Shown: positions 807-41,969 of the stretch, one piece after another | Layout of the letters: every line of letters starts with the position of its first letter | Numbering within the stretch: position 1 is the first letter of the stretch | Assembly: GCA_964016885.1 (NCBI GenBank) | Contig: OZ024766.1 | Coordinates: forward strand, 14,074,001 to 14,138,000 | Direction of reading: 5' to 3' | Source: Eledone cirrhosa | Taxonomy: Eukaryota | DNA length: 64,000 bases | Program-made: the position numbers and the translations under genes | The notes under the pieces: generated by a model | The model's input: only the letters and a program-made list of their open reading frames with translations | What the model was told of the DNA's origin: nothing | Databases searched by the model: none

Positions 807-944
807 CTTTCTCACAACTGTTTCCTTCATAACCTGGAGCACATCTACCCCTTGAACAGATCCCTAATTCCACATTACACCTGTTGTTATCTTCACAATG
901 ACACACCTGATCACAGTTGGCACCAAGTCTTCCACTACTGCACA
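807..944 (-). CDS. EGF-like (MEGF10/CED-1/SREC-type) internal exon, copy 1 (Q45E variant)
   Basis: Acceptor TGTTTTCCTGTTACAG| and donor G|GTTAGT; 138 nt, phase 1-1. Encodes (V)CSSGRLGANCDQVCHCEDNNRCNVELGICSRGRCAPGYEGNSCEK with 8 Cys. Confidence 0.85.
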
Positions 945-1283
945 CTGTAACAGGAAAACATTGGTGTAGATCAGGGATTGGCAACTTCTTTGCCTCCACG
1001 GGCCGGACGAACGCCATAAAAGAATAATTATGGAAAATTACACAAGCTAAAATTTTTATCTCGAGTGTCGACTATACTATTCATTTCTCAAATCTTGAAT
1101 TATATTCACAAATACCCCTGAATCCTGTGATTTCCCTCCTAGAAATGATGGAAAATGCACATAATTTTTATTTCAAAGTTGATGTTCCCACAACTGTAGC
1201 TTTTTTTCAAAGGCAACAATATGGTTATACATTTCATTTACGAGCTGAGTTTTACCTTGAAGTTGTAAATTTAAGTTATTTAA

Positions 1284-1504
1284 CCCTTTAGCACTTACAT
1301 TATTCTATATTTACTATTGTAGTTTCACAGTAAACACTTTATCTTATATAGTTATCTCACATAATATTGAATCTATGAGATTTTGATATTATTTATTTTG
1401 AGAAGAATACCTTAACGTCAGTATGAGTGGCTAGTTACAGCCGGTTTGAACAGAAAAAAGTGAGAGATTTCTGGCCGGATATGGCCGGTTTAAATGCTAA
1501 AGGG
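1284..1504. mobile_element. piggyBac-like MITE (221 bp), present in every unit (e.g. 5876-6096)
   Basis: TTAA|CCCTTTAGCACTTA ... TAAATGCTAAAGGG|TTAA: TTAA target duplication and CCC..GGG terminal inverted repeats (13/14 match). Confidence 0.8.
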
Positions 1505-1636
1505 TTAAACGAGTCACAATATCCTCAATAAATACCAAAGTTGTAACAGCAGGCCTTTTATTGTATTCGAAAGGAATAATACGTATTATTCTTTTAAAAT
1601 CTTTTATAATCTCTATAATTGTATTATTCTTTATCG

Positions 1637-1735
1637 AAAGGTTGTGAGTTCAATTCTCCGACCGGGTAATGTGTTGTTTCCTTGAGCAAACACTTTATTT
1701 CAAATTGCTCCAGTTTACTCAGCTGTAGAAATGAG
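1637..1735 (+). mobile_element. CORE-type tRNA-SINE fragment (in every unit)
   Basis: B-box-like gagttcaattctc, followed by ccttgagcaa(g)acactt...ctccagtttactcagctgtagaaatg, which resembles the CORE domain. Confidence 0.65.
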
Positions 1736-1761
1736 ATGATAGGGACTGGGGTCCCTATCAT

Positions 1762-1920
1762 TCCACTGTAAAGTGGTCGTAGAGGTGCCACGGCAAAAAA
1801 TCACCCAGCACTCACTGTAAATGAGGTTGGTTTTAGGAAGGGCATCAAGCTGTAGAAATCAAGCCAGAATCAGTTCCTGTCCCACTCTTGCAAGCAGGGA
1901 AAAGGGGACGTAAAATGAAA
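1762..1920 (+). mobile_element. RTE-like LINE 3' tail fragment (in every unit)
   Basis: Matches the reverse complement of the LINE 3' UTR at ~47000-47265 (cacccagcactcactgtaaatgaggttgg..taggaagggcatc..gctgtagaaatcaagcca). Confidence 0.7.
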
Positions 1921-2129
1921 TGATTTCATAATTCAGGGGTTGATAAAATATAGTACCAGTGATATCCTGGAGTAGATTTAATAGAATAGCTTAACACACA
2001 CTCACATATATATATATATCTACTAACCAAAGTATCGCGTGATCTGGTGCGTTATGGTCCACCTCGTTCCTTACCATACTTCCTACCACACACACACACA
2101 CACATATATAGATATATACTTATAAATAT

Positions 2130-2425
2130 ATACAGAATAAGGAGCAGGTATTACAATAACCTGGGGTTCAAGGGCCCTCACCTCTTCAACAAGCTGCCAA
2201 GGAATTTGAGAGATCTGCATGGTGTGGACGTGGATGTTTTCAAGGAACATCTCGACACCCTGTTACCAGGATCCTGGATGAGCCCACAGCATGGTTCGAA
2301 GGTAACCTAAGGGCAGCAACAACGAACCCCCTCTTTGCCGAATGGCCAACCAACACAGGTTGGAGAAAGAATGTGTAACAAGGGCATGCCCCAGCATGGC
2401 CTCAACTGGATCGCTGGAACACGTT
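2130..2425 (+). mobile_element. LINE (CR1/L2-like) ORF2 C-terminal fragment (in every unit)
   Basis: Peptide RYYNNLGFKGPHLFNKLPRNLRDLHGVDVDVFKEHLDTLL resembles the (W/F)N.LP...FK..LD C-terminal motif of CR1/L2 LINEs; flanked by (TA)n. Confidence 0.6.
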
Positions 2426-2440
2426 AAAAGAGTAAAAGAG

Positions 2441-2471
<31 letters not shown>

Positions 2472-2767
2472 TTATATTTATATTTCTGGCTATTTCTGGC
2501 TGTCGATGGTCCTATTCAGGCCACTGGGATGACGTTCAACGAGTGTATTTTTAAAAAAATGCAACACGTGGTTCAAATCATTCGCAGATTTGCATTTGCT
2601 GTGTAAACGCAGATGGTTATTTTTCTTCTCATTTGGTGAACATCCAAGAATTTAACTGCTGTGATTTACGGATTAATAGGTGAAATATATTTCTTACTTA
2701 AAGAGCCAGGAACCCAACGGCTGAGCTCCGGCCAGAGATCAGCAGTTGGGGTCCTGACTCTTTTCCT

Positions 2768-2809
<42 letters not shown>

Positions 2810-2957
2810 TATATTAATAAATGGAAACTATATTTATAAAACCATATTTATTTTATTATACATATTTCAAGGGCAACCAAGGCAAACTGTTGAGTGCTTT
2901 ATATCAGTTATAAAAATGTTTAAGCTTATTGAATACCAACAAATTAAATATAACCTC

Positions 2958-3002
<45 letters not shown>

Positions 3003-3369
3003 ATAAATATATATAATACAACATTAGAATTACTACTACATTTTACTTTCTATCTCTGTCTCTCACATCTCTTTCTCTCCCTCTATCTCCCTCTCTCGAT
3101 ATCCCTCTCTTTCTCTCACCCCCCTCTCTCTCTCTATCTCTCTCTATCTCTCCTCCTGTCTCTCCCATACACTTACCTAAGGTCATGTAATTTAACTGGG
3201 TGTGACTTTCTCAAAAGTTAATACAAAGACTTGCTTTCAACTGACAGAAACATAGCTACAATGTTGCACACTCATATCATGTGTCTGTATGGCTGACTGC
3301 CTGAACTTCATACAGAAATAAAAAACCCCACACAACCAACATTCTGGGGTTGATAAAATATAATTGTTT

Positions 3370-4223
3370 CTAATTATATTGACTAATTATATTTACGAAT
3401 AATATTGACTAATAATATTGACTAATTATATTGACTAATTATATTTACTAATAATATTGACTAATAATATTGACTAATTATATTGACTAATTATATTGAC
3501 TAATTATATTTACTAATTATATTTACTAATAATATTGACTAATAATATTGACTAATTATATTTACTAATAATATTGACTAATAATATTGACTTATTATAT
3601 TGACTAATTATATTGACTAATTATATTGACTAATTATATTGACTAATTATATTTACTAATAATATTGACTAATTATATTTACTAATAATATTGACTAATT
3701 ATATTGACTAATTATATTGACTAATTATATTGACTAATTATATTTACTAATAATATTGACTAATAATATTGACTAATTATATTGACTAATTATATTGACT
3801 AATTATATTTACTAATAATATTGACTAATAATATTGACTAATTATATTGACGAATTATATTGACTAATTATATTTACTAATTATATTGACTAATTATATT
3901 GACTAATAATATTAACTAATAATATTAACTAAATAATATTAACTATCAAGGGCGGTGGATTGGCAGTATCGGTATAAGGTCGGACGCCGTGCTTTCCAGC
4001 ATAGTTACGTCCCTTTACGATCTGAGTTCAAATCCCGCCGAGGTAGACTTTGCCTTTCATCCTTACGGGGTCGATAAAATAAAGTACCAGTTATGCACTG
4101 GGTATTTGCTGGCCTTGTGCCTAAAGTAGAAACAATTATTAGTAAATATAATTAGTTAATATTATTAGTTAATATAATTAGTTAATATTATTAGTTAATA
4201 TTATTAGTCAATAATAATATTAA
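3370..4223. repeat. 13-bp AT-rich satellite blocks (forward then reverse) with embedded SINE, unit 1
   Basis: (g/t)actaat(t/a)atatt repeats at 3370-3945; reverse-oriented agttaatat(t/a)att at ~4138-4223. Confidence 0.9.
3950..4138 (+). mobile_element. Full-length tRNA-derived SINE
   Basis: A-box-like tggcagtatcgg, B-box gagttcaaatccc, central gcctttcatccttacggggtcgataaaataaagtaccag (resembles the Meta/MESC SINE domain, recalled rather than searched), tail ggccttgtgcctaaagtagaaac. Confidence 0.8.
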
Positions 4224-4224
4224 T

Positions 4225-4414
4225 GGCAGTGGATTGGCAGTATCAGTGGAGGGTCGGACGCCATGCTTTGATGCATAGAGTTACGGCCCTTGCCATTCTG
4301 AGTTCAAATCCCACCGAGGTTAACTTTGCCTTTCATCCTTACGGGGTCGATAAAATAAAGTAGCAGTAATTCACTGGGGTAATTGCTGGCCTTGTGCCTA
4401 ACGTAGAAACAATT
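4225..4414 (+). mobile_element. tRNA-derived SINE, same family (repeated in units 1-8)
   Basis: Same A/B boxes, central domain and tail. Confidence 0.8.
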
Positions 4415-4477
4415 ATTAACTAATATTTCTAACTAATAATATTGATTGTTGACTAGAAATTTAGAGATTATTTTAAT

Positions 4478-4630
4478 GGTTTCTGATTTAGATGCAAGGC
4501 CAACACATTTGGGGAAGGGGTGTTGATTGACCCCAGTGTGTTACTGGTACTTTATTTTATCAACCCAGTAAGGATGAAAGGCAAAGCTTACCTTGATGGG
4601 ATTTGAACTCAGAACGTAAAGGGCCGTAAC
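4478..4630 (-). mobile_element. tRNA-derived SINE, reverse orientation, 5'-truncated (repeated across the array)
   Basis: Reverse complement of the same family (ggtactttattttatcaaccc..ggatgaaaggcaaag..gggatttgaactcaga). Confidence 0.75.
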
Positions 4631-4676
4631 TGGGTTCAAATCCTACTGAAGTTATAGCTCTGGCTTTCATCCTAAC

Positions 4677-5360
4677 AGGGTTGATAAAGTAAAGTACCAG
4701 TAACGTACTGGGGTTGATAAAGTAAAGTACCTGTAACGTTCTTGGGTTGATAAAGTAAGGTACCAGTAATGTACTGGGGTTGATAAAGTAAAGTACCAGT
4801 AATGTACTGGGTTTGATAAAGTAAAGTACCAGTAACGTACTGGGGTTGATAAAGTAAAGTACCAGTAATGTACGGGGGGTTGATAAAGTAAGGTACCAGT
4901 AATGTACTGGGGTTGATAAAGTAAAGTACCAGTAATGTACTGGGGTTGATAAGGTAAAGTACCTGTAACGTTCTTGGGTTGATAAAGTAAGGTACCAATA
5001 ATGTACTGGGGTTGATAAAGTAAAGTACCAGTAATGTACTGGGTTTGATAAAGTAAAGTATCAGTAACGTACTGGGGTTGATAAAGTAAAGTACCAGTAA
5101 CGTACTGGGGTTGATAAAGTAAAGAACCAGTAATGTACGGGGGGTTGATAAAGTAAAGTACCAGTAACGTACTGGGGTTGATAAAGTAAAGTACCAGTAA
5201 TGTACTGGGGTTGATAAAGTAAAGTACCAGTAACGTACTGGTGTTGATAAAGTAAAGTACCAGTAAAGTACTGGGGTTGACAAAATAAAGTACCAGTAAT
5301 GTACTGGGATTGATAAAATAAAGTACCAGTAATGTACTGGGGTTGATAAAATAAAGTACC
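4677..5360. repeat. 33-bp minisatellite (~20.7 copies)
   Basis: Same unit. Confidence 0.95.
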
Positions 5361-5403
5361 TGGAATGGTGAGAGATAAAAGCTGAGATATGAAAATAACT
5401 AAC

Positions 5404-5541
5404 CTTTCTGACAACTGTTTCCTTCATAACCTGGAGCACATCTACCCCTTGAACAGATCCCTAATTCCACATTACACCTGTTGTTATCTTCACAATGACA
5501 CACCTGATCACAGTTGGCACCAAGTCTTCCACTACTGCACA
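5404..5541 (-). CDS. EGF-like internal exon, copy 2 (consensus)
   Basis: Same splice sites and 46-codon 8-Cys module, ending NSCQK. Confidence 0.85.
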
Positions 5542-7058
5542 CTGTAACAGGAAAACATTGGTGTAGATCAGGGATTGCCAACTTCTTTGCCTCCATGGGC
5601 CGGACGAACGCCATAAAAGAATAATTATGGAAAATTACACAAGCTAAAATTTAATCACGAGTGTTGACTATACTATTCATTTCTCAAATCTTGAATTATA
5701 TTCACAAATACCTCAGAATCCTGTGATTTCCCTCCTTGAAATGATGGAAAATGCACATAATTTTTATTTCAAAGTTGATGTTCCCACAACTGTAGCTTTT
5801 TTTCAAATGTATATGGTTATACATTTCATTTACGAGCTGAGTTTTACCTTGAAGTTGTAAATTTAAGTTATTTAACCCTTTAGCACTTACATTACTCTAT
5901 ATTTACTATTGTAATGTCACAGTAAACACTTTATCTTATATAGTTATCTCACATAATATTGAATCTATGAGATTTTGATATTATTTATTTTGAGAAGAAT
6001 ACCTTAACGTCAGTATGAGTGGCTAGTTACAGCCGGTTTGAACAGAAAAAAGTGAGAGATTTCTGGCCGGATATGGCCGGTTTAAATGCTAAAGGGTTAA
6101 ACGATTCACAATATCCTCAATAAATACCAAAGTTGTAACAGCAGGCCTTTTATTGTATTCGAAAGGAATAATACGTATTATTCTTTTATAATCTTTTATA
6201 ATCTCTATAATTGTATTATTCTTTATCGAAAGGTTGTGAGTTCAATTCTCCGACCGGGTAATGTGTTGTTTCCTTGAGCAAGACACTTTATTTCAAATTG
6301 CTCCAGTTTACTCAGCTGTAGAAATGAGATGATAGGGACTGGGGTCCCTATCATTCCACTGTAAAGTGGTCCTAGAGGTGCCACGGCAAAAAATCACCCA
6401 GCACTCACTGTAAATGAGGTTGGTTTTAGGAAGGGCATCAAGCTGTAGAAATCAAGCCAGAATCAGTTCCTGTCCCACTCTTGCAAGCAGGGAAAAGGGG
6501 ACGTAAAATGAAATGATTTCATAATTCAGGGGTTGATAAAATATAGTACCAGTGATATCCTGGGGTAGATTTAATAGAATAGCTTAACTCGCACTCACAT
6601 ATATATATATCTACTAACCAAAGTATCGCGTGATCTGGTGCGTTATGGTCCACCTCGTTCCTTACCATACTTCCTACCACACACACACACACACACATAT
6701 ATAGATATATACTTATAAATATATACAGAATAAGGAGCAGGTATTACAATAACCTGGGGTTCAAGGGCCCTCACCTCTTCAACAAGCTGCCAAGGAATTT
6801 GAGAGATCTGCATGGTGTGGACGTGGATGTTTTCAAGGAACATCTCGACACCCTGTTACCAGGATCCTGGATGAGCCCACAGCATGGTTCGAAGGTAACC
6901 TAAGGGCAGCAACAACGAACCCCCTCTTTGCCGAATGGCCAACCAACACAGGTTGGAGAAAGAATGTGTAACAAGAGCATGCCCCAGCATGGCCTCAACT
7001 GGATCGCTGGAACACGTTAAAAGAGAAAAAGAGAATATATATATATATATATACATAT

Positions 7059-7365
7059 AATGTAGGAGGTGAGTTTTATTGTGGTACAATAAAGCAATGC
7101 AGATATCGGATAAGAAGCACTCTACAGTTTGTAGGACTGGAGTATACATAATATAAGATCAAAAGATGGTTAAAGGAGTTCCATGTATTTTATTATGCGC
7201 ATTTAAAACTGCACTATCCACAAGTGTTTTTTTAGCCTTCATATCATGTTCTCCTGTTTTATCTGATGAAAACACAAATATTATTGCATGATGATGTTTG
7301 TTTTTGAAATGCGCATAATAAAATACATGGAACTCCTTTAACCATCTTTTGATCTTATATTATAT
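7059..7365. mobile_element. Putative Penelope-like element end fragment with a 57-bp perfect inverted repeat (units 2,3,4,7,8,9)
   Basis: Arms 7148-7204 and 7307-7363 are exact reverse complements. The left part is homologous to the reverse complement of 45955-46072. Sits in (TA)n and contains a hammerhead motif. Confidence 0.6.
7255..7325 (+). ncRNA. Type I hammerhead ribozyme motif (Penelope-like minimal type), unit 2
   Basis: Stem I UGUUUUAU/AUAAAAUA; core CUGAUGA (7263-7269); stem II 7270-7305 of 16 positions (1 mismatch, 3 G-U, GCAU loop); GAAA (7306-7309); palindromic stem III AUGCGCAU; predicted cleavage AUA| after 7317. Confidence 0.8.
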
Positions 7366-7680
7366 TTACATATATATATATTTATATTTATATTTCTGGC
7401 TATTTCTGGCTGTCGATGGTCCTATTCAGGCCACTGGGATGACGTTGTTCAACGAGTGTATTTTTAAAAAAATGCAACAAGTGGTTCAAATCATTCGCAG
7501 ATTTGCATTTGCTGTGTAAACGCAGATGGTTATTTTTCTTCTCATTTGGTGAACATCCAAGAATTTAACTGCTGTGATTTACGGATTAATAGGTGAAATA
7601 TATTTCTTACTTAAAGAGCCAGGAACCCAACGGCTGAGCTCCGGCCAGAGATCAGCAGTTGGGGTCCTGACTCTTTTTCT

Positions 7681-7745
<65 letters not shown>

Positions 7746-8410
7746 ACGAAGGAAATGTGGTAAGGAACCAGGTGGACCATAACGCACCAAAGTACTCAAT
7801 ACTTGAGGTGGTAGAGTGGGTAATAGGAACCTTATTATATATTTATATATATATATATATAAATAATATATTAATAAATGGAAACTATATTTATAAAACC
7901 ATATTTATTTTATTATACATATTTCAAGGGCAACCAAGGCAAACTGTTGAGTGCTTTATATCAGTTATAAAAATGTTTAAGCTTATTGAATCCCAACAAA
8001 TTAAATATAACCTCTGCATATATATATATTTATATATATATATATAAATTTATATAATACAACATTAGAATTACTACTACATTTTACTTTCTATCTCTGT
8101 CTCTCACATCTCTTTCTCTCCCTCTATCTCCCTCTCTCGATATCCCTCTCTTTCTCTCACCCCCCTCTCTCTCTCTATCTCTCTCTATCTCTCCTCCTGT
8201 CTCTCCCATACACTTACCTAAGGTCATGTAATTTAACTGGGTGTGACTTTCTCAAAAGTTAATACAAAGACTTGCTTTCAACTGACAGAAACATAGCTAC
8301 AATGTTGCACACTCATATCATGTGTCTGTATGGCTGACTGCCTGAACTTCATACAGAAATAAAAAACCCCACACAACCAACATTCTGGGGTTGATAAAAT
8401 ATAATTGTTT

Positions 8411-9818
8411 CTAATTATATTGACTAATTATATTTACGAATAATATTGACTAATAATATTGACTAATTATATTGACTAATTATATTTACTAATAATATTG
8501 ACTAATTATATTGACTAATTATATTGACTAATTATATTTACTAATAATATTGACTAATAATATTGACTAATTATATTTACTAATAATATTGACTAATAAT
8601 ATTGACTTATTATATTGACTAATTATATTGACTAATTATATTGACTAATTATATTGACTAATTATATTTACTAATAATATTGACTAATTATATTTACTAA
8701 TAATATTGACTAATAATATTGACTAATTATATTGACTAATTATATTGACTAATTATATTGACTAATTATATTTACTAATAATATTGACTAATTATATTTA
8801 CTAATAATATTGACTAATTATATTGACTAATTATATTGACTAATTATATTGACTAATTATATTTACTAATAATATTGACTAATAATATTGACTAATTATA
8901 TTGACTAATTATATTTACTAATTATATTGACTAATTATATTGACTAATTATATTGACTAATTATATTGACTAATTATATTGACTAATTATATTTACTAAT
9001 AATAGTAACTAATTATATGAACTAATAATTATTTCTACATTAGCCACAAGGCCAGCAATTACCCAGTACATTACTGGTACTTTATTTTATCGACCCCGTA
9101 AGGATGAAAGGCAAAGTTAACCTCATTAACTAATTATATTGACTAATAATATTAACTAATTATATTGACTAATTATATTAACTAATAATATTAACTAATA
9201 TTATCACCTAATAATATTAACTAATAACATTCACTAATTATATTAACTAATAATATTAACTAATATTATCAACTAATAATATTCATTAATAATTTAAATA
9301 ATTTTTACATTAGGCACAAGGCCAGCAATTACCCCAGTGTATTACTGGTACTTTATTTTATCAACCCCGTAAGGATGAAGGGCAAAGTTAACCTCGGCGG
9401 GATTTGAATTAGTTAATATTATTCGGTGGATTGGCAGTATCGGTGGAGCGTCGGACGCCATGCTTTGATGCATAGAGTTACGGCCCTTAGTCAATATAAT
9501 TAGTAAATATTATTAGTTAATATTATTAGTTAATATAATTAGTTAATATTATTAGTTAATATAATTAGTTAATATTATTAGTTAATATTATTAGTTAATA
9601 TAATTAGTTAATATTATTAGTTAATATTATTAGTTAATATAATTAGTTAATATTATTAGTTAATATAATTAGTTAATATTATTAGTTAATATTATTAGTT
9701 AATATAATTAGTTAATATTATTAGTTAATATTATTAGTTAATATTATTAGTCAATATAATTAGTTAATATTATTAATTAATATAATTAGTTAATATTATT
9801 AGTCAATAATAACATTAA
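8411..9818. repeat. 13-bp satellite forward and reverse blocks with SINE fragments, unit 2
   Basis: Same 13-mer in both orientations. Confidence 0.9.
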
Positions 9819-10271
9819 TGGCAGTGGATTGGCAGTATCAGTGGAGGGTGGGACGCCATGCTTTGATGCATAGAGTTACGGCCCTTGCCATTCTGAGTTC
9901 AAATCCCACCGAGGTTAACTTTGCCTTTCATCCTTACGGGGTCGATAAAATAAAGTAGCAGTAATACACTGGGGTAATTGCTGGCCTTGTGCCTAACGTA
10001 GAAACAATTATTAACTAATATTTCTAACTAATAATATTGATTGTTGACTAGAAATTTAGAGATTATTTTAATGGTTTCTGATTTAGATGCAAGGCCAACA
10101 CATTTGGGGAAGGGGTGTTGATTGACCCCAGTGTGTTACTGGTACTTTATTTTATCAACCCAGTAAGGATGAAGGGCAAAGCTTACCTTGATGGGATTTG
10201 AACTCAGAACGTAAAGGGCCGTAACTGGGTTCAAATCCTACTGAAGTTATAGCTCTGGCTTTCATCCTAAC

Positions 10272-10491
10272 AGGGTTGATAAAGTAAAGTACCAGTAACG
10301 TACTGGGGTTGATAAAGTAAAGTACCAGTAACGTACTGGGGTTGATAAAGTAAAGTACCAGTAACGTACTGGGGTTGATAAAGTAAAGTACCAGTAACGA
10401 ACTGGGGTTGATAAAGTAAACTACCAGTAATGTACTGGGGTTAATAAAATAAAGTACCAGTAATGTACTGGGGTTGATAAAATAAAGTACC
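10272..10491. repeat. 33-bp minisatellite (~6.7 copies)
   Basis: Same unit. Confidence 0.95.
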
Positions 10492-10534
10492 TGGACTGGT
10501 GAGAGATAAAAGCTGAGATATGAAAATAACTAAC

Positions 10535-10672
10535 CGTTCTGACAACTGTTTCTTTCATAACCTGGAGCACATCTACCCCTTGAACAGATCCCTAATTCCA
10601 CATTACACCTGTTGTTATCTTCACAATGACACACCTGATCACAGTTGGCACCAAGTCTTCCACTACTGCACA
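10535..10672 (-). CDS. EGF-like internal exon, copy 3 (G41R, K46N)
   Basis: Same AG/GT sites; ends YERNSCQN; donor context changed to ACG|GTTAGT. Confidence 0.82.
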
Positions 10673-13013: not shown

Positions 13014-13079
<66 letters not shown>

Positions 13080-13192: not shown

Positions 13193-13251
<59 letters not shown>

Positions 13252-15707: not shown

Positions 15708-15845
15708 CTTTCTGACAACTGTTTCCTTCATAACCTGGAGCACATCTACCCCTTGAACAGATCCCTAATTCCACATTACACCTGTTGTTATCTTCACAAT
15801 GACACACCTGATCACAGTTGGCACCAAGTCTTCCACTACTGCACA
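15708..15845 (-). CDS. EGF-like internal exon, copy 4 (consensus)
   Basis: Same splice sites and module. Confidence 0.85.
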
Positions 15846-21763: not shown

Positions 21764-21901
21764 CTTTCTGACAACTGTTTCCTTCATAACCTGGAGCACA
21801 TCTACCCCTTGAACAGATCCCTAATTCCACATTACACCTGTTGTTATCTTCACAATGACACACCTGATCACAGTTGGCACCAAGTCTTCCACTACTGCAC
21901 A
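21764..21901 (-). CDS. EGF-like internal exon, copy 5 (consensus)
   Basis: Same splice sites and module. Confidence 0.85.
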
Positions 21902-26645: not shown

Positions 26646-26783
26646 CTTTCTGACAACTGTTTCCTTCATAACCTGGAGCACATCTACCCCTTGAACAGAT
26701 CCCTAATTCCACATTACACCTGCTGTTATCTTCACAATGACACACCTGATCACAGTTGGCATCAAGTCTTCCACTACTGCACA
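26646..26783 (-). CDS. EGF-like internal exon, copy 6 (G8D, N21S)
   Basis: Same splice sites; reads RLDANC and EDNSRC. Confidence 0.85.
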
Positions 26784-30723: not shown

Positions 30724-31174
30724 AGGGTTGATAAAGTAAAGTACCAGTAACGTACTGGGGTTGATAAAGTAAAGTACCTGTAACGTTCTTGGGTGGATAA
30801 AGTAAGGTACCAGTAATGTACTGGGGTTGATAAAGTAAAGTACCAGTAATGTACTGGGTTTGATAAAGTAAAGTATCAGTAACGTACTGGGGTTGATAAA
30901 GTAAAGTACCAGTAATGTACTGGGGTTGATAAAGTAAAGTACCAGTAACGTACTGGGGTTGATAAAGTAAAGTACCAGGAATGTACTGGGGTTGATAAAG
31001 TAAAGTACCAGTAATGTACTGGGGTTGATAAAATAAAGTACCAGTAACGTACTGGGGTTGATAAAGTAAAGTACCAGTAAAGTACTGGGGTTGACAAAAT
31101 AAAGTACCAGTAATGTACTGGGATTGATAAAATAAAGTACCAGTAATGTACTGGGGTTGATAAAATAAAGTACC
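30724..31174. repeat. 33-bp minisatellite (~13.7 copies)
   Basis: Same unit. Confidence 0.95.
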
Positions 31175-31217
31175 TGGCCTGGTGAGAGATAAAAGCTGAG
31201 ATATGAAAATAACTAAC

Positions 31218-31355
31218 CTTTCTGACAACTGTTTCCTTCATAACCTGGAGCACATCTACCCCTTGAACAGATCCCTAATTCCACATTACACCTGTTGTTA
31301 TCTTCACAATGACACACCTGATCACAGTTGGCACCAAGTCTTCCACTACTGCACA
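31218..31355 (-). CDS. EGF-like internal exon, copy 7 (consensus)
   Basis: Same splice sites and module. Confidence 0.85.
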
Positions 31356-33067
31356 CTGTAACAGGAAAACATTGGTGTAGATCAGGGATTGCCAACTTCT
31401 TTGCCTCCATGGGCCGGACGAACGCCATAAAAGAATAATTATGGAAAATTACACAAGCTAAAATTTTTATCTCGAGTGTTGACTATACTATTCATTTCTC
31501 AAATCTTGAATTATATTCACAAATACCTCTGAATCCTGTGATTTCCCTCCTTGAAATGATGGAAAATGCACATAATTTTTATTTCAAAGTTGATGTTCCC
31601 ACAACTGTAGCTTTTTTTCAAAGGCAACAATATGGTTATACATTTCATTTACGAGCTGAGTTTTAACTTGAAGTTGTAAATTTAAGTTATTTAACCCTTT
31701 AGCACTTACATTACTCTATATTTACTATTGTAATGTCACAGTAAACACTTTATCTTATATAGTTATCTCACATAATATTGAATCTATGAGATTTTGATAA
31801 TCTTTATTTTGAGAAGAATACCTTAACGTCAGTATGAGTGGCTAGTTACAGCCGGTTTGAACAGAAAAAAGTGAGAGATTTCTGGCCGGATATGGCCGGT
31901 TTAAATGGTAAAGGGTTAAACGAGTCACAATATCCTCAATAAATACCAAAGTTGTAACAGCAGGCCTTTTATTGTATTCGAAAGGAATAATACGTATTAT
32001 TCTTTTATAATCTTTTATTATCTCTATAATTGTATTATTCTTTATCGAAAGGTTGTGAGTTCAATTCTCAGACCGGTTAATGTGTTGTTTCCTTGAGCAA
32101 GACACTTTATTTCAAATTGCTCCAGTTTACTCAGCTGTAGAAATGAGATGATAGGGACTGGGGTCCCTATCATTCCACTGTAAAGTGGTCCTAGAGGTGC
32201 CACGGCAAAAAATCACCCAGCACTCACTGTAAATGAGGTTGGTTTTAGGAAGGGCATCAAGCTGTAGAAATCAAGCCAGAATCAGTTCCTGTCCCACTCT
32301 TGCAAGCAGGGAAAAGGGGACGTAAAATGAAATGATTTCATAATTCAGGGGTTGATAAAATATAGTACCAGTGATATCCTGGGGTAGATTTAATAGAATA
32401 GCTTAACTCGCACTCACATATATATATATCTACTAACCAAAGTATCGCGTGATCTGGTGCGTTATGGTCCACCTCGTTCCTTACCATACTTCCTACCACA
32501 CACACACACATATATAGATATATACTTATAAATATATACAGAATAAGGAGCAGGTATTACAATAACCTGGGGTTCAAGGGCCCTCACCTCTTCAACAAGC
32601 TGCCAAGGAATTTGAGAGATCTGCATGGTGTGGACGTGGATGTTTTCAAGGAACATCTCGACACCCTGTTACCAGGATCCTGGATGAGCCCACAGCATGG
32701 TTCGAAGGTAACCTAAGGGCAGCAACAACGAACCCCCTCTTTGCCGAATGGCCAACCAACACAGGTTGGAGAAAGAATGTGTAACAAGAGCATGCCCCAG
32801 CATGGCCTCAACTGGATCGCTGGAACACGTTAAAAGAGAAAAAGAGAATATATATATATATATATACATATAATGTAGGACGTGAGTTTTATTGTGGTAC
32901 AATAAAGCAATGCAGATATCGGATAAGAAGCACTCTACAGTTTGTAGGACTGGAGTATACATAATATAAGATCAAAAGATGGTTAAAGGAGTTCCATGTA
33001 TTTTATTATGCGCATTTAAAACTGCACTATCCACAAGTGTTTTTTTAGCCTTCATATCATGTTCTCC

Positions 33068-33138
33068 TGTTTTATCTGATGAAAACACAAATATTATTGC
33101 ATGATGATGTTTGTTTTTGAAATGCGCATAATAAAATA
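33068..33138 (+). ncRNA. Type I hammerhead ribozyme motif, unit 7
   Basis: Identical to 7255-7325. Confidence 0.8.
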
Positions 33139-33493
33139 CATGGAACTCCTTTAACCATCTTTTGATCTTATATTATATTTACATATATATATATTTATAT
33201 TTATATTTCTGGCTATTTCTGGCTGTCGATGGTCCTATTCAGGCCACTGGGATGACGTTGTTCAACGAGTGTATTTTTAAAAAAATGCAACAAGTGGTTC
33301 AAATCATTCGCAGATTTGCATTTGCTGTGTAAACGCAGATGGTTATTTTTCTTCTCATTTGGTGAACATCCAAGAATTTAACTGCTGTGATTTACGGATT
33401 AATAGGTGAAATATATTTCTTACTTAAAGAGCCAGGAACCCAACGGCTGAGCTCCGGCCAGAGATCAGCAGTTGGGGTCCTGACTCTTTTCCT

Positions 33494-33578
<85 letters not shown>

Positions 33579-34243
33579 ACGAAGGAAATGTGGTAAGGAA
33601 CCAGGTGGACCATAACGCACCAAAGTACTCAATACTTGAGGTGGTAGAGTGGGTAATAGGAACCTTATTATATATTTATATATATATATATATAAATAAT
33701 ATATTAATAAATGGAAACTATATTTATAAAACCATATTTATTTTATTATACATATTTCAAGGGCAACCAAGGCAAACTGTTGAGTGCTTTATATCAGTTA
33801 TAAAAATGTTTAAGCTTATTGAATCCCAACAAATTAAATATAACCTCTGCATATATATATATTTATATATATATATATAAATTTATATAATACAACATTA
33901 GAATTACTACTACATTTTACTTTCTATCTCTGTCTCTCACATCTCTTTCTCTCCCTCTATCTCCCTCTCTCGATATCCCTCTCTTTCTCTCACCCCCCTC
34001 TCTCTCTCTATCTCTCTCTATCTCTCCTCCTGTCTCTCCCATACACTTACCTAAGGTCATGTAATTTAACTGGGTGTGACTTTCTCAAAAGTTAATACAA
34101 AGACTTGCTTTCAACTGACAGAAACATAGCTACAATGTTGCACACTCATATCATGTGTCTGTATGGCTGACTGCCTGAACTTCATACAGAAATAAAAAAC
34201 CCCACACAACCAACATTCTGGGGTTGATAAAATATAATTGTTT

Positions 34244-35664
34244 CTAATTATATTGACTAATTATATTTACGAATAATATTGACTAATTATATTGACTAAT
34301 TATATTGACTAATAATATTGACTAATAATATTGACTAATTATATTGACTAATTATATTGACTAATTATATTTACTAATAATATTGACTAATAATATTGAC
34401 TAATTATATTTACTAATAATATTGACTAATAATATTGACTTATTATATTGACTAATTATATTGACTAATTATATTGACTAATTATATTTACTAATAATAT
34501 TGACTAATTATATTTACTAATAATATTGACTAATAATATTGACTAATTATATTGACTAATTATATTGACTAATTATATTGACTAATTATATTGACTAATT
34601 ATATTTACTAATAATATTGACTAATTATATTTACTAATAATATTGACTAATTATATTGACTAATTATATTGACTAATTATATTGACTAATTATATTTACT
34701 AATAATATTGACTAATAATATTGACTAATTATATTGACTAATTATATTTACTAATTATATTGACTAATTATATTGACTATTTATATTGACTAATTATATT
34801 GACTAATTATATTGACTAATTATATTTACTAATAATAGTAACTAATTATATGAACTAATAATTATTTCTACATTAGCCACAAGGCCAGCAATTACCCAGT
34901 ACATTACTGGTACTTTATTTTATCGACCCCGTAAGGATGAAAGGCAAAGTTAACCTCATTAACTAATTATATTGACTAATAATATTAACTAATTATATTG
35001 ACTAATTATATTAACTAATAATATTAACTAATATTATCACCTAATAATATTAACTAATAACATTCACTAATTATATTAACTAATAATATTAACTAATATT
35101 ATCAACTAATAATATTCATTAATAATTTAAATAATTTTTACATTAGGCACAAGGCCAGCAATTACCCCAGTGTATTACTGGTACTTTATTTTATCAACCC
35201 CGTAAGGATGAAGGGCAAAGTTAACCTCGGCGGGATTTGAATTAGTTAATATTATTCGGTGGATTGGCAGTATCGGTGGAGCGTCGGACGCCATGCTTTG
35301 ATGCATAGAGTTACGGCCCTTAGTCAATATAATTAGTAAATATTATTAGTTAATATTATTAGTTAATATAATTAGTTAATATTATTAGTTAATATAATTA
35401 GTTAATATTATTAGTTAATATTATTAGTTAATATAATTAGTTAATATTATTAGTTAATATTATTAGTTAATATAATTAGTTAATATAATTAGTTAATATT
35501 ATTAGTTAATATAATTAGTTAATATTATTAGTTAATATTATTAGTTAATATAATTAGTTAATATTATTAGTTAATATTATTAGTTAATATTATTAGTCAA
35601 TATAATTAGTTAATATTATTAATTAATATAATTAGTTAATATTATTAGTCAATAATAACATTAA
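34244..35664. repeat. 13-bp satellite blocks, unit 7
   Basis: Same 13-mer in both orientations. Confidence 0.9.
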
Positions 35665-36117
35665 TGGCAGTGGATTGGCAGTATCAGTGGAGGGTGGGAC
35701 GCCATGCTTTGATGCATAGAGTTACGGCCCTTGCCATTCTGAGTTCAAATCCCACCGAGGTTAACTTTGCCTTTCATCCTTACGGGGTCGATAAAATAAA
35801 GTAGCAGTAATACACTGGGGTAATTGCTGGCCTTGTGCCTAACGTAGAAACAATTATTAACTAATATTACTAACTAATAATATTGATTGTTGACTAGAAA
35901 TTTAGAGATTATTTTAATGGTTTCTGATTTAGATGCAAGGCCAACACATTTGGGGAAGGGGTGTTGATTGACCCCAGTGTGTTACTGGTACTTTATTTTA
36001 TCAACCCAGTAAGGATGAAGGGCAAAGCTTACCTTGATGGGATTTGAACTCAGAACGTAAAGGGCCGTAAGTGGGTTCAAATCCTACTGAAGTTATAGCT
36101 CTGGCTTTCATCCTAAC

Positions 36118-36337
36118 AGGGTTGATAAAGTAAAGTACCAGTAACGTACTGGGGTTGATAAAGTAAAGTACCAGTAACGTACTGGGGTTGATAAAGTAAA
36201 GTACCAGTAACGTACTGGGGTTGATAAAGTAAAGTACCAGTAATGAACTGGGGTTGATAAAGTAAACTACCAGTAATGTACTGGGGTTAATAAAATAAAG
36301 TACCAGTAATGTACTGGGGTTGATAAAATAAAGTACC
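36118..36337. repeat. 33-bp minisatellite (~6.7 copies)
   Basis: Same unit. Confidence 0.95.
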
Positions 36338-36380
36338 TGGACTGGTGAGAGATAAAAGCTGAGATATGAAAATAACTAAC

Positions 36381-36518
36381 CTTTCTGACAACTGTTTCTT
36401 TCATAACCTGGAGCACATCTACCCCTTGAACAGATCCCTAATTCCACATTACACCTGTTGTTATCTTCACAATGACACACCTGATCACAGTTGGCACCAA
36501 GTCTTCCACTACTGCACA
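36381..36518 (-). CDS. EGF-like internal exon, copy 8 (G41R)
   Basis: Same splice sites; ends YERNSCQK. Confidence 0.85.
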
Positions 36519-38233
36519 CTGTAACAGGAAAACATTGGTGTAGATCAGGGATTGGCAACTTCTTTGCCTCCATGGGCCGGACGAACGCCATAAAAGAATA
36601 ATTATGGAAAATTACACAAGCTAAAATTTAATCTCGAGTGTTGACTATACTATTCATTTCTCAAATCTTGAATTATATTCACAAATACCTCTGAATCCTG
36701 TGATTTCCCTCCTTGAAATGATGGAAAATGCACATAATTTTTATTTCAAAGTTGATGTTCCCACAACTGTAGCTTTTTTTCAAAGACAACAATATGGTTA
36801 TACATTTCATTTACGAGCTGTGTTTTACCTTGAAGTTGTAAATTTAAGTTATTTAACCCTTTAGCACTTACATTATTCTATATTTACTATTGTAGTTTCA
36901 CAGTAAACACTTTATCTTATATCGTTATCTCACATAATATTGAATCTATGAGATTTTGATATTATTTATTTTGAGAAGAATACCTTAACGTCAGTATGAG
37001 TGGCTAGTTACAGCCGGTTTGAACAGAAAAAAGTGAGAGATTTCTGGCCGGATATGGCCGGTTTAAATGCTAAAGGGTTAAACGAGTCACAATATCCTCA
37101 ATAAATACCAAAGTTGTAACAGCAGGCCTTTTATTGTATTCGAAAGGAATAATACGTATTATTCTTTTATAATCTTTTATAATCTCTATAATTGTATTAT
37201 TCTTTATCGAAAGGTTGTGAGTTCAATTCTCCGACCGGTTAATGTGTTGTTTCCTTGAGCAAGACACTTTATTTCAAATTGCTCCAGTTTACTCAGCTGT
37301 AGAAATGAGATGATAGGGACTGGAGTCCCTATCATTCCACTGTAAAGTGGTCGTAGAGGTGCCACGGCAAAAAATCACCCAGCACTCACTGTAAATGAGG
37401 TTGGTTTTAGGAAGGGCATCAAGCTGTAGAAATCAAGCCAGAATCAGTTCCTGTCCCACTCTTGCAAGCAGGGAAAAGGTGACGTAAAATGAAATGATTT
37501 CATAATTCAGGGGTTGATAAAATATAGTACCAGTGATATCCTGGAGTAGATTTAATAGAATAGCTTAACACACACTCACATATATATATATATCTACTAA
37601 CCAAAGTATCGCGTGATCTGGTGCGTTATGGTCCACCTCGTTCCTTACCATACTTCCTACCACACACACACATATATAGATATATACTTATAAATATATA
37701 CAGAATAAGGAGCAGGTATTACAATAACCTGGGGTTCAAAGGCCCTCACCTCTTCAACAAGCTGCCAAGGAATTTGAGAGATCTGCATGGTGTGGACGTG
37801 GATGTTTTCAAGGAACATCTCGACACCCTGTTACCAGGATCCTGGATGAGCCCACAGCATGGTTCGAAGGTAACCTAAGGGCAGCAACAACGAACCCCCT
37901 CTTTGCCAAATGGCCAACCAACACAGGTTGGAGAAAGAATGTGTAACAAGGGCATGCCCCAGCATGGCCTCAACTGGATCGCTGGAACACGTTAAAAGAG
38001 TAAAAGAGAATATATATATATATATATATATACATATAATGTAGGAGGTGAGTTTTATTGTAGTACAATAAAGCAATGCAGATATCGGATAAGAAGCACT
38101 CTACAGTTTGTAGGACTGGAGTATACATAATATAAGATCAAAAGATGGTTAAAGGAGTTCCATGTATTTTATTATGCGCATTTAAAACTGCACTATCCAC
38201 AAGTGTTTTTTTAGCCTTCATATCATGTTCTCC

Positions 38234-38304
38234 TGTTTTATCTGATGAAAACACAAATATTATTGCATGATGATGTTTGTTTTTGAAATGCGCATAATAA
38301 AATA
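38234..38304 (+). ncRNA. Type I hammerhead ribozyme motif, unit 8
   Basis: Identical to 7255-7325. Confidence 0.8.
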
Positions 38305-38659
38305 CATGGAACTCCTTTAACCATCTTTTGATCTTATATTATATATACATATATATATATTTATATTTATATTTCTGGCTATTTCTGGCTGTCGATGGTC
38401 CTATTCAGGCCACTGGGATGACGTTGTTCAACGAGTGTATTTTTAAAAAAATGCAACAAGTGGTTCAAATCATTCGCAGATTTGCATTTGCTGTGTAAAC
38501 GCAGATGGTTATTTTTCTTCTCATTTGGTGAACATCCAAGAATTTAACTGCTGTGATTTACGGATTAATAGGTGAAATATATTTCTTACTTAAAGAGCCA
38601 GGAACCCAACGGCTGAGCTCCGGCCAGAGATCAGCAGTTGGGGTCCTGACTCTTTTCCT

Positions 38660-38708
<49 letters not shown>

Positions 38709-39373
38709 ACGAAGGAAATGTGGTAAGGAACCAGGTGGACCATAACGCACCAAAGTACTCAATACTTGAGGTAGTAGAGTGGGTAATAGGAACCTTATTA
38801 TATATTTATATATATATATATATAAATAATATATTAATAAATGGAAACTATATTTATAAAACCATATTTATTTTATTATACATATTTCAAGGGCAACCAA
38901 GGCAAACTGTTGAGTGCTTTATATCAGTTATAAAAATGTTTAAGCTTATTGAATCCCAACAAATTAAATATAACCTCTGCATATATATATATTTATATAT
39001 ATATATATAAATATATATAATACAACATTAGAATTACTACTACATTTTACTTTCTATCTCTGTCTCTCACATCTCTTTCTCTCCCTCTATCTCCCTCTCT
39101 CGATATCCCTCTCTTTCTCTCACCCCCCTCTCTCTCTCTCTCTCTCTCTATCTCTCCTCCTGTCTCTCCCATACACTTACCTAAGGTCATGTAATTTAAC
39201 TGGGTGTGACTTTCTCAAAAGTTAATACAAAGACTTGCTTTCAACTGACAGAAACATAGCTACGATGTTGCACACTCATATCATGTGTCTGTATGGCTGA
39301 CTGCCTGAACTTCATACAGAAATAAAATACCCCACACAACCAACATTCTGGGGTTGATAAAATATAATTGTTT

Positions 39374-40703
39374 CTAATTATATTGACTAATTATATTTAC
39401 GAATAATATTGACTAATAATATTGACTAATTATATTGACTAATTATATTTACTAATAATATTGACTAATAATATTGACTAATTATATTGACTAATTATAT
39501 TGACTAATTATATTTACTAATAATATTGACTAATAATATTGACTAATTATATTTACTAATAATATTGACTAATAATATTGACTAATTATATTGACTAATT
39601 ATATTGACTAATCATATTGACTAATTATATTGACTAATTATATTGACTAATTATATTTACTAATAATATTGACTAATTATATTTACTAATAATATTGACT
39701 AATTATATTGACTAATTATATTGACTAATTATATTGACTAATTATATTTACTAATAATATTGACTAATAATATTGACTAATTATATTGACTAATTATATT
39801 TACTAATTATATTGACTAATTATATTGACTAATTATATTGACTAATTATATTGACTAATTATATTGACTAATTATATTTACTAATAATAGTAACTAATTA
39901 TATGAACTAATAATTATTTCTACATTAGCCACAAGGCCAGCAATTACCCAGTACATTACTGGTACTTTATTTTATCGACCCCGTAAGGATGAAAGGCAAA
40001 GTTAACCTCATTAACTAATTATATTGACTAATAATATTAACTAATTATATTGACTAATTATATTAACTAATAATATTAACTAATATTATCACCTAATAAT
40101 ATTAACTAATAACATTCACTAATTATATTAACTAATAATATTAACTAATATTATCAACTAATAATATTCACTAATAATTTAAATAATTTTTACATTAGGC
40201 ACAAGGCCAGCAATTACCCCAGTGTATTACTGGTACTTTATTTTATCAACCCCGTAAGGATGAAGGGCAAAGTTAACCTCGGCGGGATTTGAATTAGTTA
40301 ATATTATTCGGTGGATTGGCAGTATCGGTGGAGCGTCGGACGCCATGCTTTGATGCATAGAGTTACGGCCCTTAGTCAATATAATTAGTAAATATTATTA
40401 GTTAATATAATTAGTTAATATAATTAGTTAATATAATTAGTTAATATAATTAGTTAATATTATTAGTTAATATTATTAGTTAATATAATTAGTTAATATT
40501 ATTAGTTAATATTATTAGTTAATATAATTAGTTAATATTATTAGTTAATATAATTAGTTAATATTATTAGTTAATATTATTAGTTAATATAATTAGTTAA
40601 TATTATTAGTTAATATTATTAGTTAATATTATTAGTCAATATAATTAGTTAATATTATTAATTAATATAATTAGTTAATATTATTAGTCAATAATAACAT
40701 TAA
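39374..40703. repeat. 13-bp satellite blocks, unit 8
   Basis: Same 13-mer in both orientations. Confidence 0.9.
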
Positions 40704-41138
40704 TGGCAGTGGATTGGCAGTATCAGTGGAGGGTCGGACGCCATGCTTTGATGCATAGAGTTACGGCCCTTGCCATTCTGAGTTCAAATCCCACCGAGGT
40801 TAACTTTGCCTTTCATCCTTACGGGGTCGATAAAATAAAGTAGCAGTAATTCACTGGGGTAATTGCTGGCCTTGTGCCTAACGTAGAAACAATTATTAAC
40901 TAATATTTCTAACTAATAATATTTAGAGATTATTTTAATGGTTTCTGATTTAGATGCAAGGCCAACACATTTGGGGAAGGGGTGTTGATTGACCCCAGTG
41001 TGTTACTGGTACTTTATTTTATCAACCCAGTAAGGATGAAAGGCAAAGCTTACCTTGATGGGATTTGAACTCAGAACGTAAAGGGCCGTAACTGGGTTCA
41101 AATCCTACTGAAGTTATAGCTCTGGCTTTCATCCTAAC

Positions 41139-41788
41139 AGGGTTGATAAAGTAAAGTACCAGTAACGTACTGGGGTTGATGAAGTAAAGTACCTGTAACG
41201 TTCTTGGGTTGATAAAGTAAGGTACCAGTAATGTACTGGGGGTTGATAAAGTAAAGTACCAGTAATGTACTGGGTTTGATAAAGTAAAGTATCAGTAACG
41301 TACTGGGGTTGATAAAGTAAAGTACCAGTAATGTACGGGGGTTGATAAAGTAAAGTACCAGTAACGTACTGGGGTTGATAAAGTAAAGTACCAGTAATGT
41401 ACTGGGGTTGATAAAGTAAAGTACCAGTAACGTACTGGGGTTGATAAAGTAAAGTACCAGTAATGTACTGGGGTTGATAAAATAAAGTACCAGTAATGTA
41501 CTGGAGTTGATAAAATAAAGTACTAGTAACGTACTGGGGTTGATAAAGTAAAGTACCAGGAATGTACTGGGATTGATAAAGTAAAGTACCAGTAATGTAC
41601 TGGGGTTGATAAAATAAAGTACCAGTAACGTACTGGGGTTGATAAAGTAAAGTACCAGTAACGTACTGGGGTTGACAAAATAAAGTACCAGTAATGTACT
41701 GGGATTGATAAAATAAAGTACCAGTAATGTACTGGGATTGATAAAATAAAGTACCAGTAATGTACTGGGGTTGATAAAATAAAGTACC
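41139..41788. repeat. 33-bp minisatellite (~19.7 copies)
   Basis: Same unit. Confidence 0.95.
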
Positions 41789-41831
41789 TGGACTGGTGAG
41801 AGATAAAAGCTGAGATATGAAAATAACTAAC

Positions 41832-41969
41832 CTTTCTGACAACTGTTTCCTTCATAACCTGGAGCACATCTACCCCTTGAACAGATCCCTAATTCCACAT
41901 TACACCTGTTGTTATCTTCACAATGACACACCTGATCACAGTTGGCACCAAGTCTTCCACTACTGCACA
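41832..41969 (-). CDS. EGF-like internal exon, copy 9 (consensus; most 5' copy in transcription order)
   Basis: Same splice sites and module. Confidence 0.85.

What the first reader, a model, noticed from the sequence alone, without database searches (positions are those of the whole stretch)
807..41969. Giant tandem array of near-identical symmetric EGF exons: a candidate variable-length or alternatively spliced MEGF10/CED-1-like receptor
Seen: nine copies of a 138-nt phase 1-1 exon, one per ~5-kb unit, all with intact AG/GT sites, an open frame and all 8 Cys. Splicing copies together regenerates ...NSCQK-V-CSSGRLG... in frame. Known: this Cys spacing is the repeat unit of MEGF10/11, Draper/CED-1 and SREC ectodomains. 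Inference: whole exon+intron units were amplified very recently, giving an ectodomain whose length could vary by copy number and by in-frame skipping of any subset. This resembles a Dscam-like cassette array caught at birth and could serve immune, phagocytic or self-recognition diversity.
Basis: partly seen in the sequence, partly recalled or inferred. Interest (0 to 1): 0.85.

Follow-up and report, generated by a model that had tools for sequence, protein, structure and literature searches.

The report
Amplified headless EGF exon array
One exon of a giant EGF-repeat receptor gene was cut off from its gene, fused to unrelated DNA and copied 27 times in tandem here; the array lacks the receptor's start, membrane anchor and tail, so it is likely a decaying repeat, not a variable-length receptor.

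Summary
In detail: nine 138-nt phase 1-1 EGF exons, all with AG/GT and 8 Cys. The array runs on beyond the window to 27 copies (~134 kb). The interpretation mostly fails. Only ~1 kb of each ~5-kb unit aligns uniquely to the parent gene; every unit repeats a junction 630 bp upstream of the exon where parent intron meets C2H2-cluster DNA. The same junction marks 73 copies at seven loci on two contigs. The parent is a single gene on another contig (C22): 52 EGF exons found, a transmembrane exon and a YxxM-rich tail. Its most 5' EGF exon, TM exon and full tail exon are single-copy in the genome; the array locus has none. Across 73 copies the exon varies like intron (12/138 vs 37/499 sites; 10 replacement, 2 silent; two cysteines hit), whereas a young 18-exon block inside the parent gene shows pN/pS 0.32. 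Copies are too alike for Dscam-type diversity (17 of 27 encode one peptide). One run's contig ends exactly at the exon's ends, so some copy is probably spliced; which one is unknown. Verdict: an exon-bearing macrosatellite in a segmental duplicate, probably born by SINE-SINE unequal crossover.

The parts
807..944 (-). EGF exon X copy (Q44E variant), 138 nt, phase 1-1
5404..5541 (-). EGF exon X copy, majority sequence
10535..10672 (-). EGF exon X copy (G40R, K45N)
15708..15845 (-). EGF exon X copy, majority sequence
21764..21901 (-). EGF exon X copy, majority sequence
26646..26783 (-). EGF exon X copy (G7D, N20S)
31218..31355 (-). EGF exon X copy, majority sequence
36381..36518 (-). EGF exon X copy (G40R)
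41832..41969 (-). EGF exon X copy, most 5' of the 27-copy array
41970..42599 (-). 630 bp of parent-gene intron upstream of X (98-99% to the C20 copy); repeated in every unit
42599..42600 (.). chimeric junction: parent intron ends, foreign flank begins; the same breakpoint recurs in all 27 units
42600..45114 (.). foreign (non-parent) flank that is part of every repeat unit: interspersed-repeat pieces and microsatellites
45115..45251 (.). SINE-like copy, 132/137 identical and in direct orientation to one in the parent intron just below X; likely crossover site that made the first tandem unit
41140..41788 (.). 33-bp minisatellite directly downstream of X (6.6-25.6 copies per unit in the window); with the 13-bp minisatellites it accounts for much of the unit-length variation
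53458..53985 (-). single-exon C2H2 zinc-finger ORF, 176 aa, several fingers degenerate; upstream of the array on the same strand
55309..58395 (.). 89-bp satellite, 34.7 copies; also found upstream of the C19 and C27:12.9 Mb arrays
60785..61624 (-). single-exon C2H2 zinc-finger ORF, 280 aa

Best explanation
The array is a tandem repeat of a chimeric ~5-kb unit that carries one internal EGF exon of a multi-EGF receptor gene whose only complete copy found lies on another contig, and it is likely a neutrally evolving passenger that makes no receptor. Shown: (1) a parent gene on C22 with 52 EGF exons found, a TM exon and a tyrosine-motif tail; (2) many partial duplicates of its 5' half, cut at both ends; (3) one rearrangement joined the intron 630 bp above exon X to C2H2-cluster DNA, removing the upstream exons; (4) that junction sits in every unit and at seven loci. 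Inferred: direct SINE copies on either side of [flank + X] recombined unequally to make the first tandem pair; further unequal crossovers and minisatellite slippage grew it to 27, with 3- and 5-unit block duplications; segmental duplication spread it. Inferred: no in-frame start, signal peptide or membrane anchor is available at this locus, so any transcript would be non-coding or an untargeted fragment, and the intact frames and splice sites reflect youth (~1% divergence), not selection.
For: Unit shares ~990 bp with the parent-type gene, same breakpoint in all 27 units; junction 32-mer matches 66 places, all in array loci, control 0; parent-type copies on C16, C20, C22 and C27:15.15 Mb keep the ancestral intron. 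In 494 kb around the array (C27:13.814-14.308 Mb) the only parent exons besides X are N + E1 177 kb upstream, and three copies of Y plus one of the exon before Y, 80 kb and more downstream. TM exon: 1 match in the genome; tail exon: 1 full match plus one 42-aa partial, both on C22; most 5' EGF exon: 1 match; C19 has four arrays and no N exon. No signal-peptide-like ATG+donor on the sense strand in 187 kb upstream (0, against 8 on the opposite strand; crude heuristic); X, N, E1 and Y contain no in-frame Met. 73 array copies: 10 replacement and 2 silent variants, neutral expectation 81:19, P=1.0; variable sites 12/138 exon vs 37/499 intron, P=0.59; 4 copies lost a Cys. Variants hit G7, C10, C22, G37, Q44, invariant in 49 of 49 parent exons. 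Control: parent's young 18-exon block pN/pS 0.32, 15 of 43 variants silent, P=0.01 against neutrality. Direct SINE copies 132/137.
Against: All 73 copies keep AG/GT and an open frame, 51 encode one peptide. The selection test is weak: 12 variants; it does not reject the parent's ratio (P=0.06; 0.034 on the first 10 variants), and the direct 9:1 vs 28:15 comparison was not significant (P=0.25). In run X1 (kind not on record) one contig spans exactly AG + exon X, while a contig of run X2 runs through both ends; X1's upstream-intron contig matches a haplotype seen in 28 of 73 array copies and 0 of 7 other copies examined, so array units may be transcribed (or this is genomic carry-over). N + E1 lie upstream and Y downstream on the same strand, all phase 1-1, so an in-frame chain is possible on paper. 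The signal-peptide scan is a heuristic and a captured first exon could be missed.
Confidence: 0.68

Rival explanations
1. The array is transcribed from a captured promoter (the upstream C2H2 cluster, or the N+E1 fragment 177 kb away), copies are spliced to each other, and a captured first exon supplies a start, giving a soluble poly-EGF product of variable length that could act as a decoy for the C22 receptor.
For: Same-strand C2H2 genes upstream; all splice sites intact; exon-bounded contig in X1 starting 2 nt before the exon, as an X-X join would cause, and an array-type intron haplotype in X1; N+E1 and Y flank in phase.
Against: No X-X joint among the 15 joints shown (2089 not shown); the 2-nt start is equally explained by the TAG acceptor allele of two genomic copies; no start/signal exon candidate; variants look neutral and hit structural Cys/Gly.
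Confidence: 0.2
2. One reading: the array is the ectodomain of a MEGF10/CED-1-like receptor whose length and specificity vary by copy number and skipping (Dscam-like).
For: Symmetric exons, intact frames; repeat type matches proteins named MEGF6/MEG11-like/draper-like in molluscs.
Against: No TM or tail exon on C27; chimeric unit; 17 of 27 copies encode one peptide; no EMI match on C22 or C27.
Confidence: 0.04
3. The array is inflated by assembly error.
For: Minisatellite-rich, multi-locus repeat in a 3-Gb assembly; some unit pairs are nearly identical.
Against: Units differ by 0.98% on average over 1600 columns, only 2 of 351 pairs identical, with shared variants in a nested pattern; variants are shared between separate arrays; the majority intron alleles in run X2's contigs are the duplicate-type ones (X2 may be the assembly's own sample).
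Confidence: 0.05

Closest known systems
LPA kringle IV type 2 repeat (human)
   Same: ~5.5-kb exon-bearing unit repeated head to tail, 1 to >40 near-identical copies (PMC4378929, passages); here ~5 kb and 27 copies.
   Different: KIV-2 lies between unique exons of a complete gene and its unit is the gene's own exons and introns; here most of the unit is foreign DNA, the gene's head and membrane part are missing, and the array recurs at seven loci.
NBPF/Olduvai tandem amplification in segmental duplications (primates)
   Same: A coding domain hyper-amplified in tandem inside recently duplicated segments next to another gene (PMC6611739, abstract).
   Different: NBPF genes are transcribed genes; expression of this array as protein is not shown and its variants look neutral.
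CED-1/Draper/MEGF10 engulfment receptors, and molluscan proteins named MEGF6-, MEG11- or draper-like
   Same: Same 8-Cys repeat type; best library hits include such proteins at about 40% identity per repeat; the C22 parent is a single-pass multi-EGF protein with tyrosine motifs.
   Different: CED-1/Draper carry an EMI domain and NPxY plus ITAM/YxxL (PMC8092387, passages). No EMI or NPxY was found in the parent; its tail has YEEF, YDEM, three YEVM and YGVM. The array itself has only one repeat type and no TM.
Gene-fragment macrosatellites (D4Z4-type; recalled, no call)
   Same: Multi-kb chimeric unit with a coding piece, variable copy number between loci, block-wise turnover.
   Different: D4Z4 carries a whole ORF per unit; this unit carries an internal exon without a start codon.
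Arthropod Dscam1 cassette arrays (recalled, no call)
   Same: Tandem duplicated exons of one domain type.
   Different: Dscam cassettes are diverged, mutually exclusive and lie between constitutive exons of one gene; these are nearly identical and lie in a fragment.

Membership tests
CED-1/Draper/MEGF10 | Tandem 8-Cys EGF-like repeats | tested here: met
   Pfam scores are below the curated cut-offs for a single repeat
CED-1/Draper/MEGF10 | N-terminal EMI domain | tested here: not met
   PF07546 search of the genome: one weak match on C1, none on C22 or C27; N exon and 5' exons match no Pfam family. An EMI split over exons could be missed.
CED-1/Draper/MEGF10 | Single transmembrane segment in the same gene (array locus) | tested here: not met
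   TM exon single-copy on C22; absent from 494 kb around the array. Met for the C22 parent.
CED-1/Draper/MEGF10 | Cytoplasmic NPxY and ITAM/YxxL | tested here: inconclusive
   Array locus has no tail. In the parent, one tail exon shows YxxM/YxxF motifs and no NPxY; one NPxY frame 26 kb downstream of the TM exon was not shown to be an exon; the tail's exon set is incomplete.
Dscam-type cassette array | Alternative exons diverged in sequence | tested here: not met
   17 of 27 copies here and 51 of 73 overall encode one peptide
Dscam-type cassette array | Array flanked by constitutive exons of one complete gene | tested here: not met
Dscam-type cassette array | Mutually exclusive or regulated splicing | not testable with these tools
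   only contigs were available
KIV-2-type intragenic exon CNV | Multi-kb near-identical exon-bearing units in tandem | tested here: met
   spacing 3975-6056 bp, 0.98% mean difference
KIV-2-type intragenic exon CNV | Unit is the gene's own exon plus intron, inside an intact gene | tested here: not met
   The 18-exon block inside the C22 parent does lie within the complete gene.
KIV-2-type intragenic exon CNV | Copy number differs between individuals and all copies are spliced in | not testable with these tools
   one assembly; contig depth is no copy number
Gene-fragment macrosatellite in segmental duplications | Same unit at several duplicated loci with differing copy number | tested here: met
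   27, 21, 13 and 4 x 3 copies
Gene-fragment macrosatellite in segmental duplications | Coding piece not under purifying selection | tested here: inconclusive
   fits neutrality (P=1.0) but does not reject pN/pS 0.32 (P=0.06)

The most novel reading that the evidence does not exclude
Because every exon of this receptor's ectodomain is phase 1-1, the genome has turned it into a nested construction kit: exon-level arrays (27, 21, 13, 3 copies), ~130-kb gene fragments in tandem on C20, and chimeric fusions to C2H2 clusters could all be spliced in frame. A captured promoter and first exon would give a new, fast-changing family of soluble poly-EGF proteins, paralogous to a single 52-EGF membrane receptor, caught while being born.
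Probability: 0.12. Interest if true: 0.75.

Novelty: new variant of a known kind. Interest (0 to 1): 0.38.

Why it matters
As read here it is a clean, datable example of how one rearrangement plus flanking SINEs turns a symmetric exon into a macrosatellite, and a warning that intact frames and splice sites in a 1%-diverged array say nothing about function; gene predictors will likely call such loci MEGF-like genes. The side finding matters more: a single receptor with at least 52 EGF exons, holding its own young 18-exon block under purifying selection, whose 5' half has been copied to at least 25 other places. That gene, not this array, is the place to look for a variable-length ectodomain. 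If array copies prove to be spliced to each other behind a captured start, it would be a new gene family in the making.

Tried and rejected
Sequencing runs: six holders, no RNA holder listed; this is no evidence on expression. Contigs laid on a C22 stretch with exons W and X: no W-X or X-X joint among the 15 joints shown, 2089 not shown, so no verdict; depths were not used as copy numbers or expression levels; the two exon alleles that separate C22 from the duplicates cannot assign X1's contig, because runs of other organisms (X5 at both sites, X6 at one) carry the duplicate-type letters, which therefore look ancestral. Word-indexed protein searches with X and the tail exon found nothing; weak evidence. 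An apparent Ig motif in the C20 stretch after Y has no splice context and was dropped. The 89-bp satellite reads like a mucin in one frame but shifts frame each unit; dropped (sequence). A Helitron lies in the C20 duplicates after Y, about 6 kb from the break, so Helitron capture was not adopted as the mechanism. The first variant count (70 array copies) missed three copies with changes inside the search 26-mer; they were found through the junction search, fetched and added. Two of the five C20 copies were not fetched (80 of 82 known X copies examined). Earlier-findings look-ups returned nothing. Paper searches for octopus+MEGF10+expansion, octopus+C2H2+segmental duplication+EGF, cephalopod+exon duplication+EGF and mollusc multiple-EGF expansion listed nothing on this array or gene; only listings were seen. 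No structure or complex prediction was run: it would not bear on the question.
Full report
1. Observation. The window is G000:C27:14,074,001-14,138,000 of a 3.0-Gb animal assembly. Its SINE-like repeats and single-exon C2H2 genes look octopod to me; that label is recalled and comes from no call. Nine copies of a 138-nt exon (X) lie on the minus strand between 807 and 41969, 98-100% identical, each with AG/GT, an open frame and eight Cys; the pattern occurs 9 times in the window and 0 times in 30 shuffles. Pfam gives EGF-type matches below cut-off; the best library relatives are multi-EGF proteins, several named MEGF6-, MEG11- or draper-like in molluscs, others receptor phosphatases or unnamed amphioxus proteins (10 of 150 hits looked up).

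2. The array is larger and not unique. A 26-mer from X matches 79 places, control 0; three more copies turned up through the junction search. This array has 27 whole copies plus a 5'-truncated one over about 134 kb. Sister arrays have 21 and 13 copies on C27 and 3 copies at each of four places on C19; nine single copies lie on C16, C20, C22 and C27. Units differ by 0.98% over 1600 aligned columns, 2 of 351 pairs are identical, and neighbours repeat in blocks (8-9 like 11-12; 17-19 like 22-24), as unequal crossing-over would leave. This argues against a simple assembly inflation.

3. The parent gene. A second, diverged EGF exon (Y) 82 kb below the array led to a large family of EGF exons. On C22 they form one long gene: a candidate signal-peptide exon (heuristic only), a first EGF exon, a 150-nt non-EGF exon N, 51 further EGF exons, a transmembrane exon and a tail exon with YEEF, YDEM, three YEVM and YGVM. 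The 50 listed all have AG acceptors, and 49 of them are 138 nt with a GT donor, all eight Cys and no stop. X is single there, the 32nd of that list. The first EGF exon, the TM exon and the full tail exon each match once in the genome (the tail has one 42-aa partial relative, also on C22), whereas N matches 26 times. The C20 copy examined begins 6.8 kb above N, after the first EGF exon, and leaves the parent about 550 bp after Y: it is a fragment cut at both ends, repeated every ~130 kb.

4. The unit is chimeric. Each of the 27 units aligns to the parent-type gene over about 990 bp and stops at the same base, 630 bp above X (window 42599/42600). Beyond it lies DNA of the C2H2-cluster flank; part of the minisatellite/SINE stretch below X also resembles the parent's downstream intron. 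A 32-mer across the junction matches 66 places, all in array loci; C16, C20, C22 and C27:15.15 Mb copies keep the ancestral intron. Upstream of the first unit come two C2H2 ORFs and an 89-bp satellite, and the C19 and C27:12.9 Mb arrays examined share this flank. In 494 kb around the array the only other parent exons are N and E1, 177 kb upstream, and Y (three copies) with one copy of the exon before it, downstream; the six exons between X and that one are missing here, though present in the C19 copy examined. C19 has no N exon at all. X, N, E1 and Y hold no in-frame Met, and a crude scan found no signal-peptide-like start on the sense strand in 187 kb (0 against 8 on the other strand).

5. 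How it arose (inferred). A SINE-like copy 3.1 kb above X in the foreign flank (window 45115-45251) and one in the parent intron just below X are 132/137 identical and in direct orientation, and the unit runs from the one to the other. Unequal crossover between them explains the first tandem pair; the order must be fusion first, tandem duplication second, spread to other loci third, because the junction is inside the unit and shared by all seven loci.

6. Selection. In 73 array copies there are 12 exon variants: 10 replacement (G4R, G7D, C10R, N20S, C22W, E25Q, G37V, G40R, Q44E, K45N) and 2 silent, against 81:19 expected without selection (P=1.0); variable sites are as dense as in the adjacent intron (12/138 vs 37/499, P=0.59); four copies lost a Cys. 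Five of the replacements hit positions invariant in 49 of 49 parent exons. The parent's own young block of 18 exons (C22:1,713,794-1,724,983, mean identity 93%) has pN/pS 0.32 and 15 of 43 silent variants (P=0.01 against neutrality). Against my reading: the numbers are small, the array does not reject the parent's ratio (P=0.06), and all 73 copies keep frame and splice sites; at this divergence fewer than one stop or splice-site hit is expected anyway (my estimate).

7. Expression. Contigs of four runs were laid on the C22 stretch with X. In run X1, whose kind is not on record, one 140-nt contig covers exactly AG plus the exon, while an X2 contig runs through both ends; this suggests that some copy of X is spliced. 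It does not say which. X1's upstream-intron contig matches, at nine positions, a haplotype found in 28 of 73 array copies and 0 of 7 other copies examined: array units may be transcribed, or this may be genomic DNA from a 73-copy sequence. This is why the rival of an expressed chimeric poly-EGF product keeps 0.2.

8. Comparison. It works like the LPA KIV-2 repeat in size and mode (PMC4378929, passages) and like NBPF/Olduvai in sitting in young duplications (PMC6611739, abstract), but fails the test of lying inside a complete gene. It is not a CED-1/Draper/MEGF10 member: those have EMI, NPxY and ITAM/YxxL (PMC8092387, passages); no EMI match lies on C22 or C27 and the array locus has no TM or tail. 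It is not Dscam-like (recalled features): the copies are nearly invariant. Searches listed no paper on this gene or array (listings only; no supplements were read, and genome-paper supplements could hold an annotation of the parent).

9. Verdict. Real, recent and larger than reported, but most likely an exon-bearing macrosatellite in a headless, anchorless segmental duplicate (0.68). Interest 0.38; 0.75 if copy-to-copy splicing behind a captured start is shown (probability 0.12). The C22 parent is the better candidate for a variable-length ectodomain.

Noticed in passing
G000:C22:1,662,610-1,791,125 (L065-L078): Single complete parent gene found: at least 52 phase 1-1 EGF exons, TM exon and a tail with three YEVM and one YGVM motif; no EMI detected; tail exon has no database relative found.
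   Followed up: partly
G000:C22:1,713,794-1,724,983 (L070-L071): Young block of 18 near-identical EGF exons spaced about 400-1800 bp inside the complete gene, pN/pS 0.32; a true intragenic exon expansion and the better candidate for length variation.
   Followed up: partly
G000:C20:3.49-5.28 Mb: 14 matches to exon N on one strand about 100-210 kb apart: a megabase tandem of gene fragments; the one examined has N plus 19 EGF exons and is cut at both ends.
   Followed up: partly
L035:5803-8910 (G000:C20:5,050,803-5,053,910): Helitron (Helitron_like_N and PIF1 matches) downstream of exon Y, carried in the C20, C19 and C27 duplicates.
   Followed up: partly
window 53458-53985 and 60785-61624, minus strand: Two single-exon C2H2 zinc-finger ORFs; the first has several fingers with lost Cys/His.
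   Followed up: partly
window 55309-58395: 89-bp satellite, about 35 copies here, far longer at C27:12.90-12.91 Mb and shorter on C19; travels with the array's upstream flank.
   Followed up: partly
G000:C27:13,981,999-13,982,085 (L011): Last array unit holds only the 3' 87 nt of exon X, cut by a deletion that ends in an AT microsatellite.
   Followed up: yes
G000:C27:15,101,419-15,101,556 (L061): A single X copy with a different upstream break (parent homology stops about 190 bp above the exon) whose downstream sequence matches the end of this array.
   Followed up: partly
L025 (G000:C20:4,947,400-4,947,560 and 4,955,700-4,956,950) and L089: 38- to 57-bp tandem repeats in parent introns whose units resemble pieces of the EGF exons: exon halves turning into minisatellites.
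   Followed up: no
G000:C27:14,174,600-14,185,900 (L017-L018): About 11 kb of a 21-bp tandem repeat with long open frames in several phases; likely plain satellite.
   Followed up: no
window 8411-10491 and 34244-36337: Two units 25.8 kb apart share identical minisatellite copy numbers (47.4 and 6.6), a sign of a recent multi-unit duplication.
   Followed up: partly
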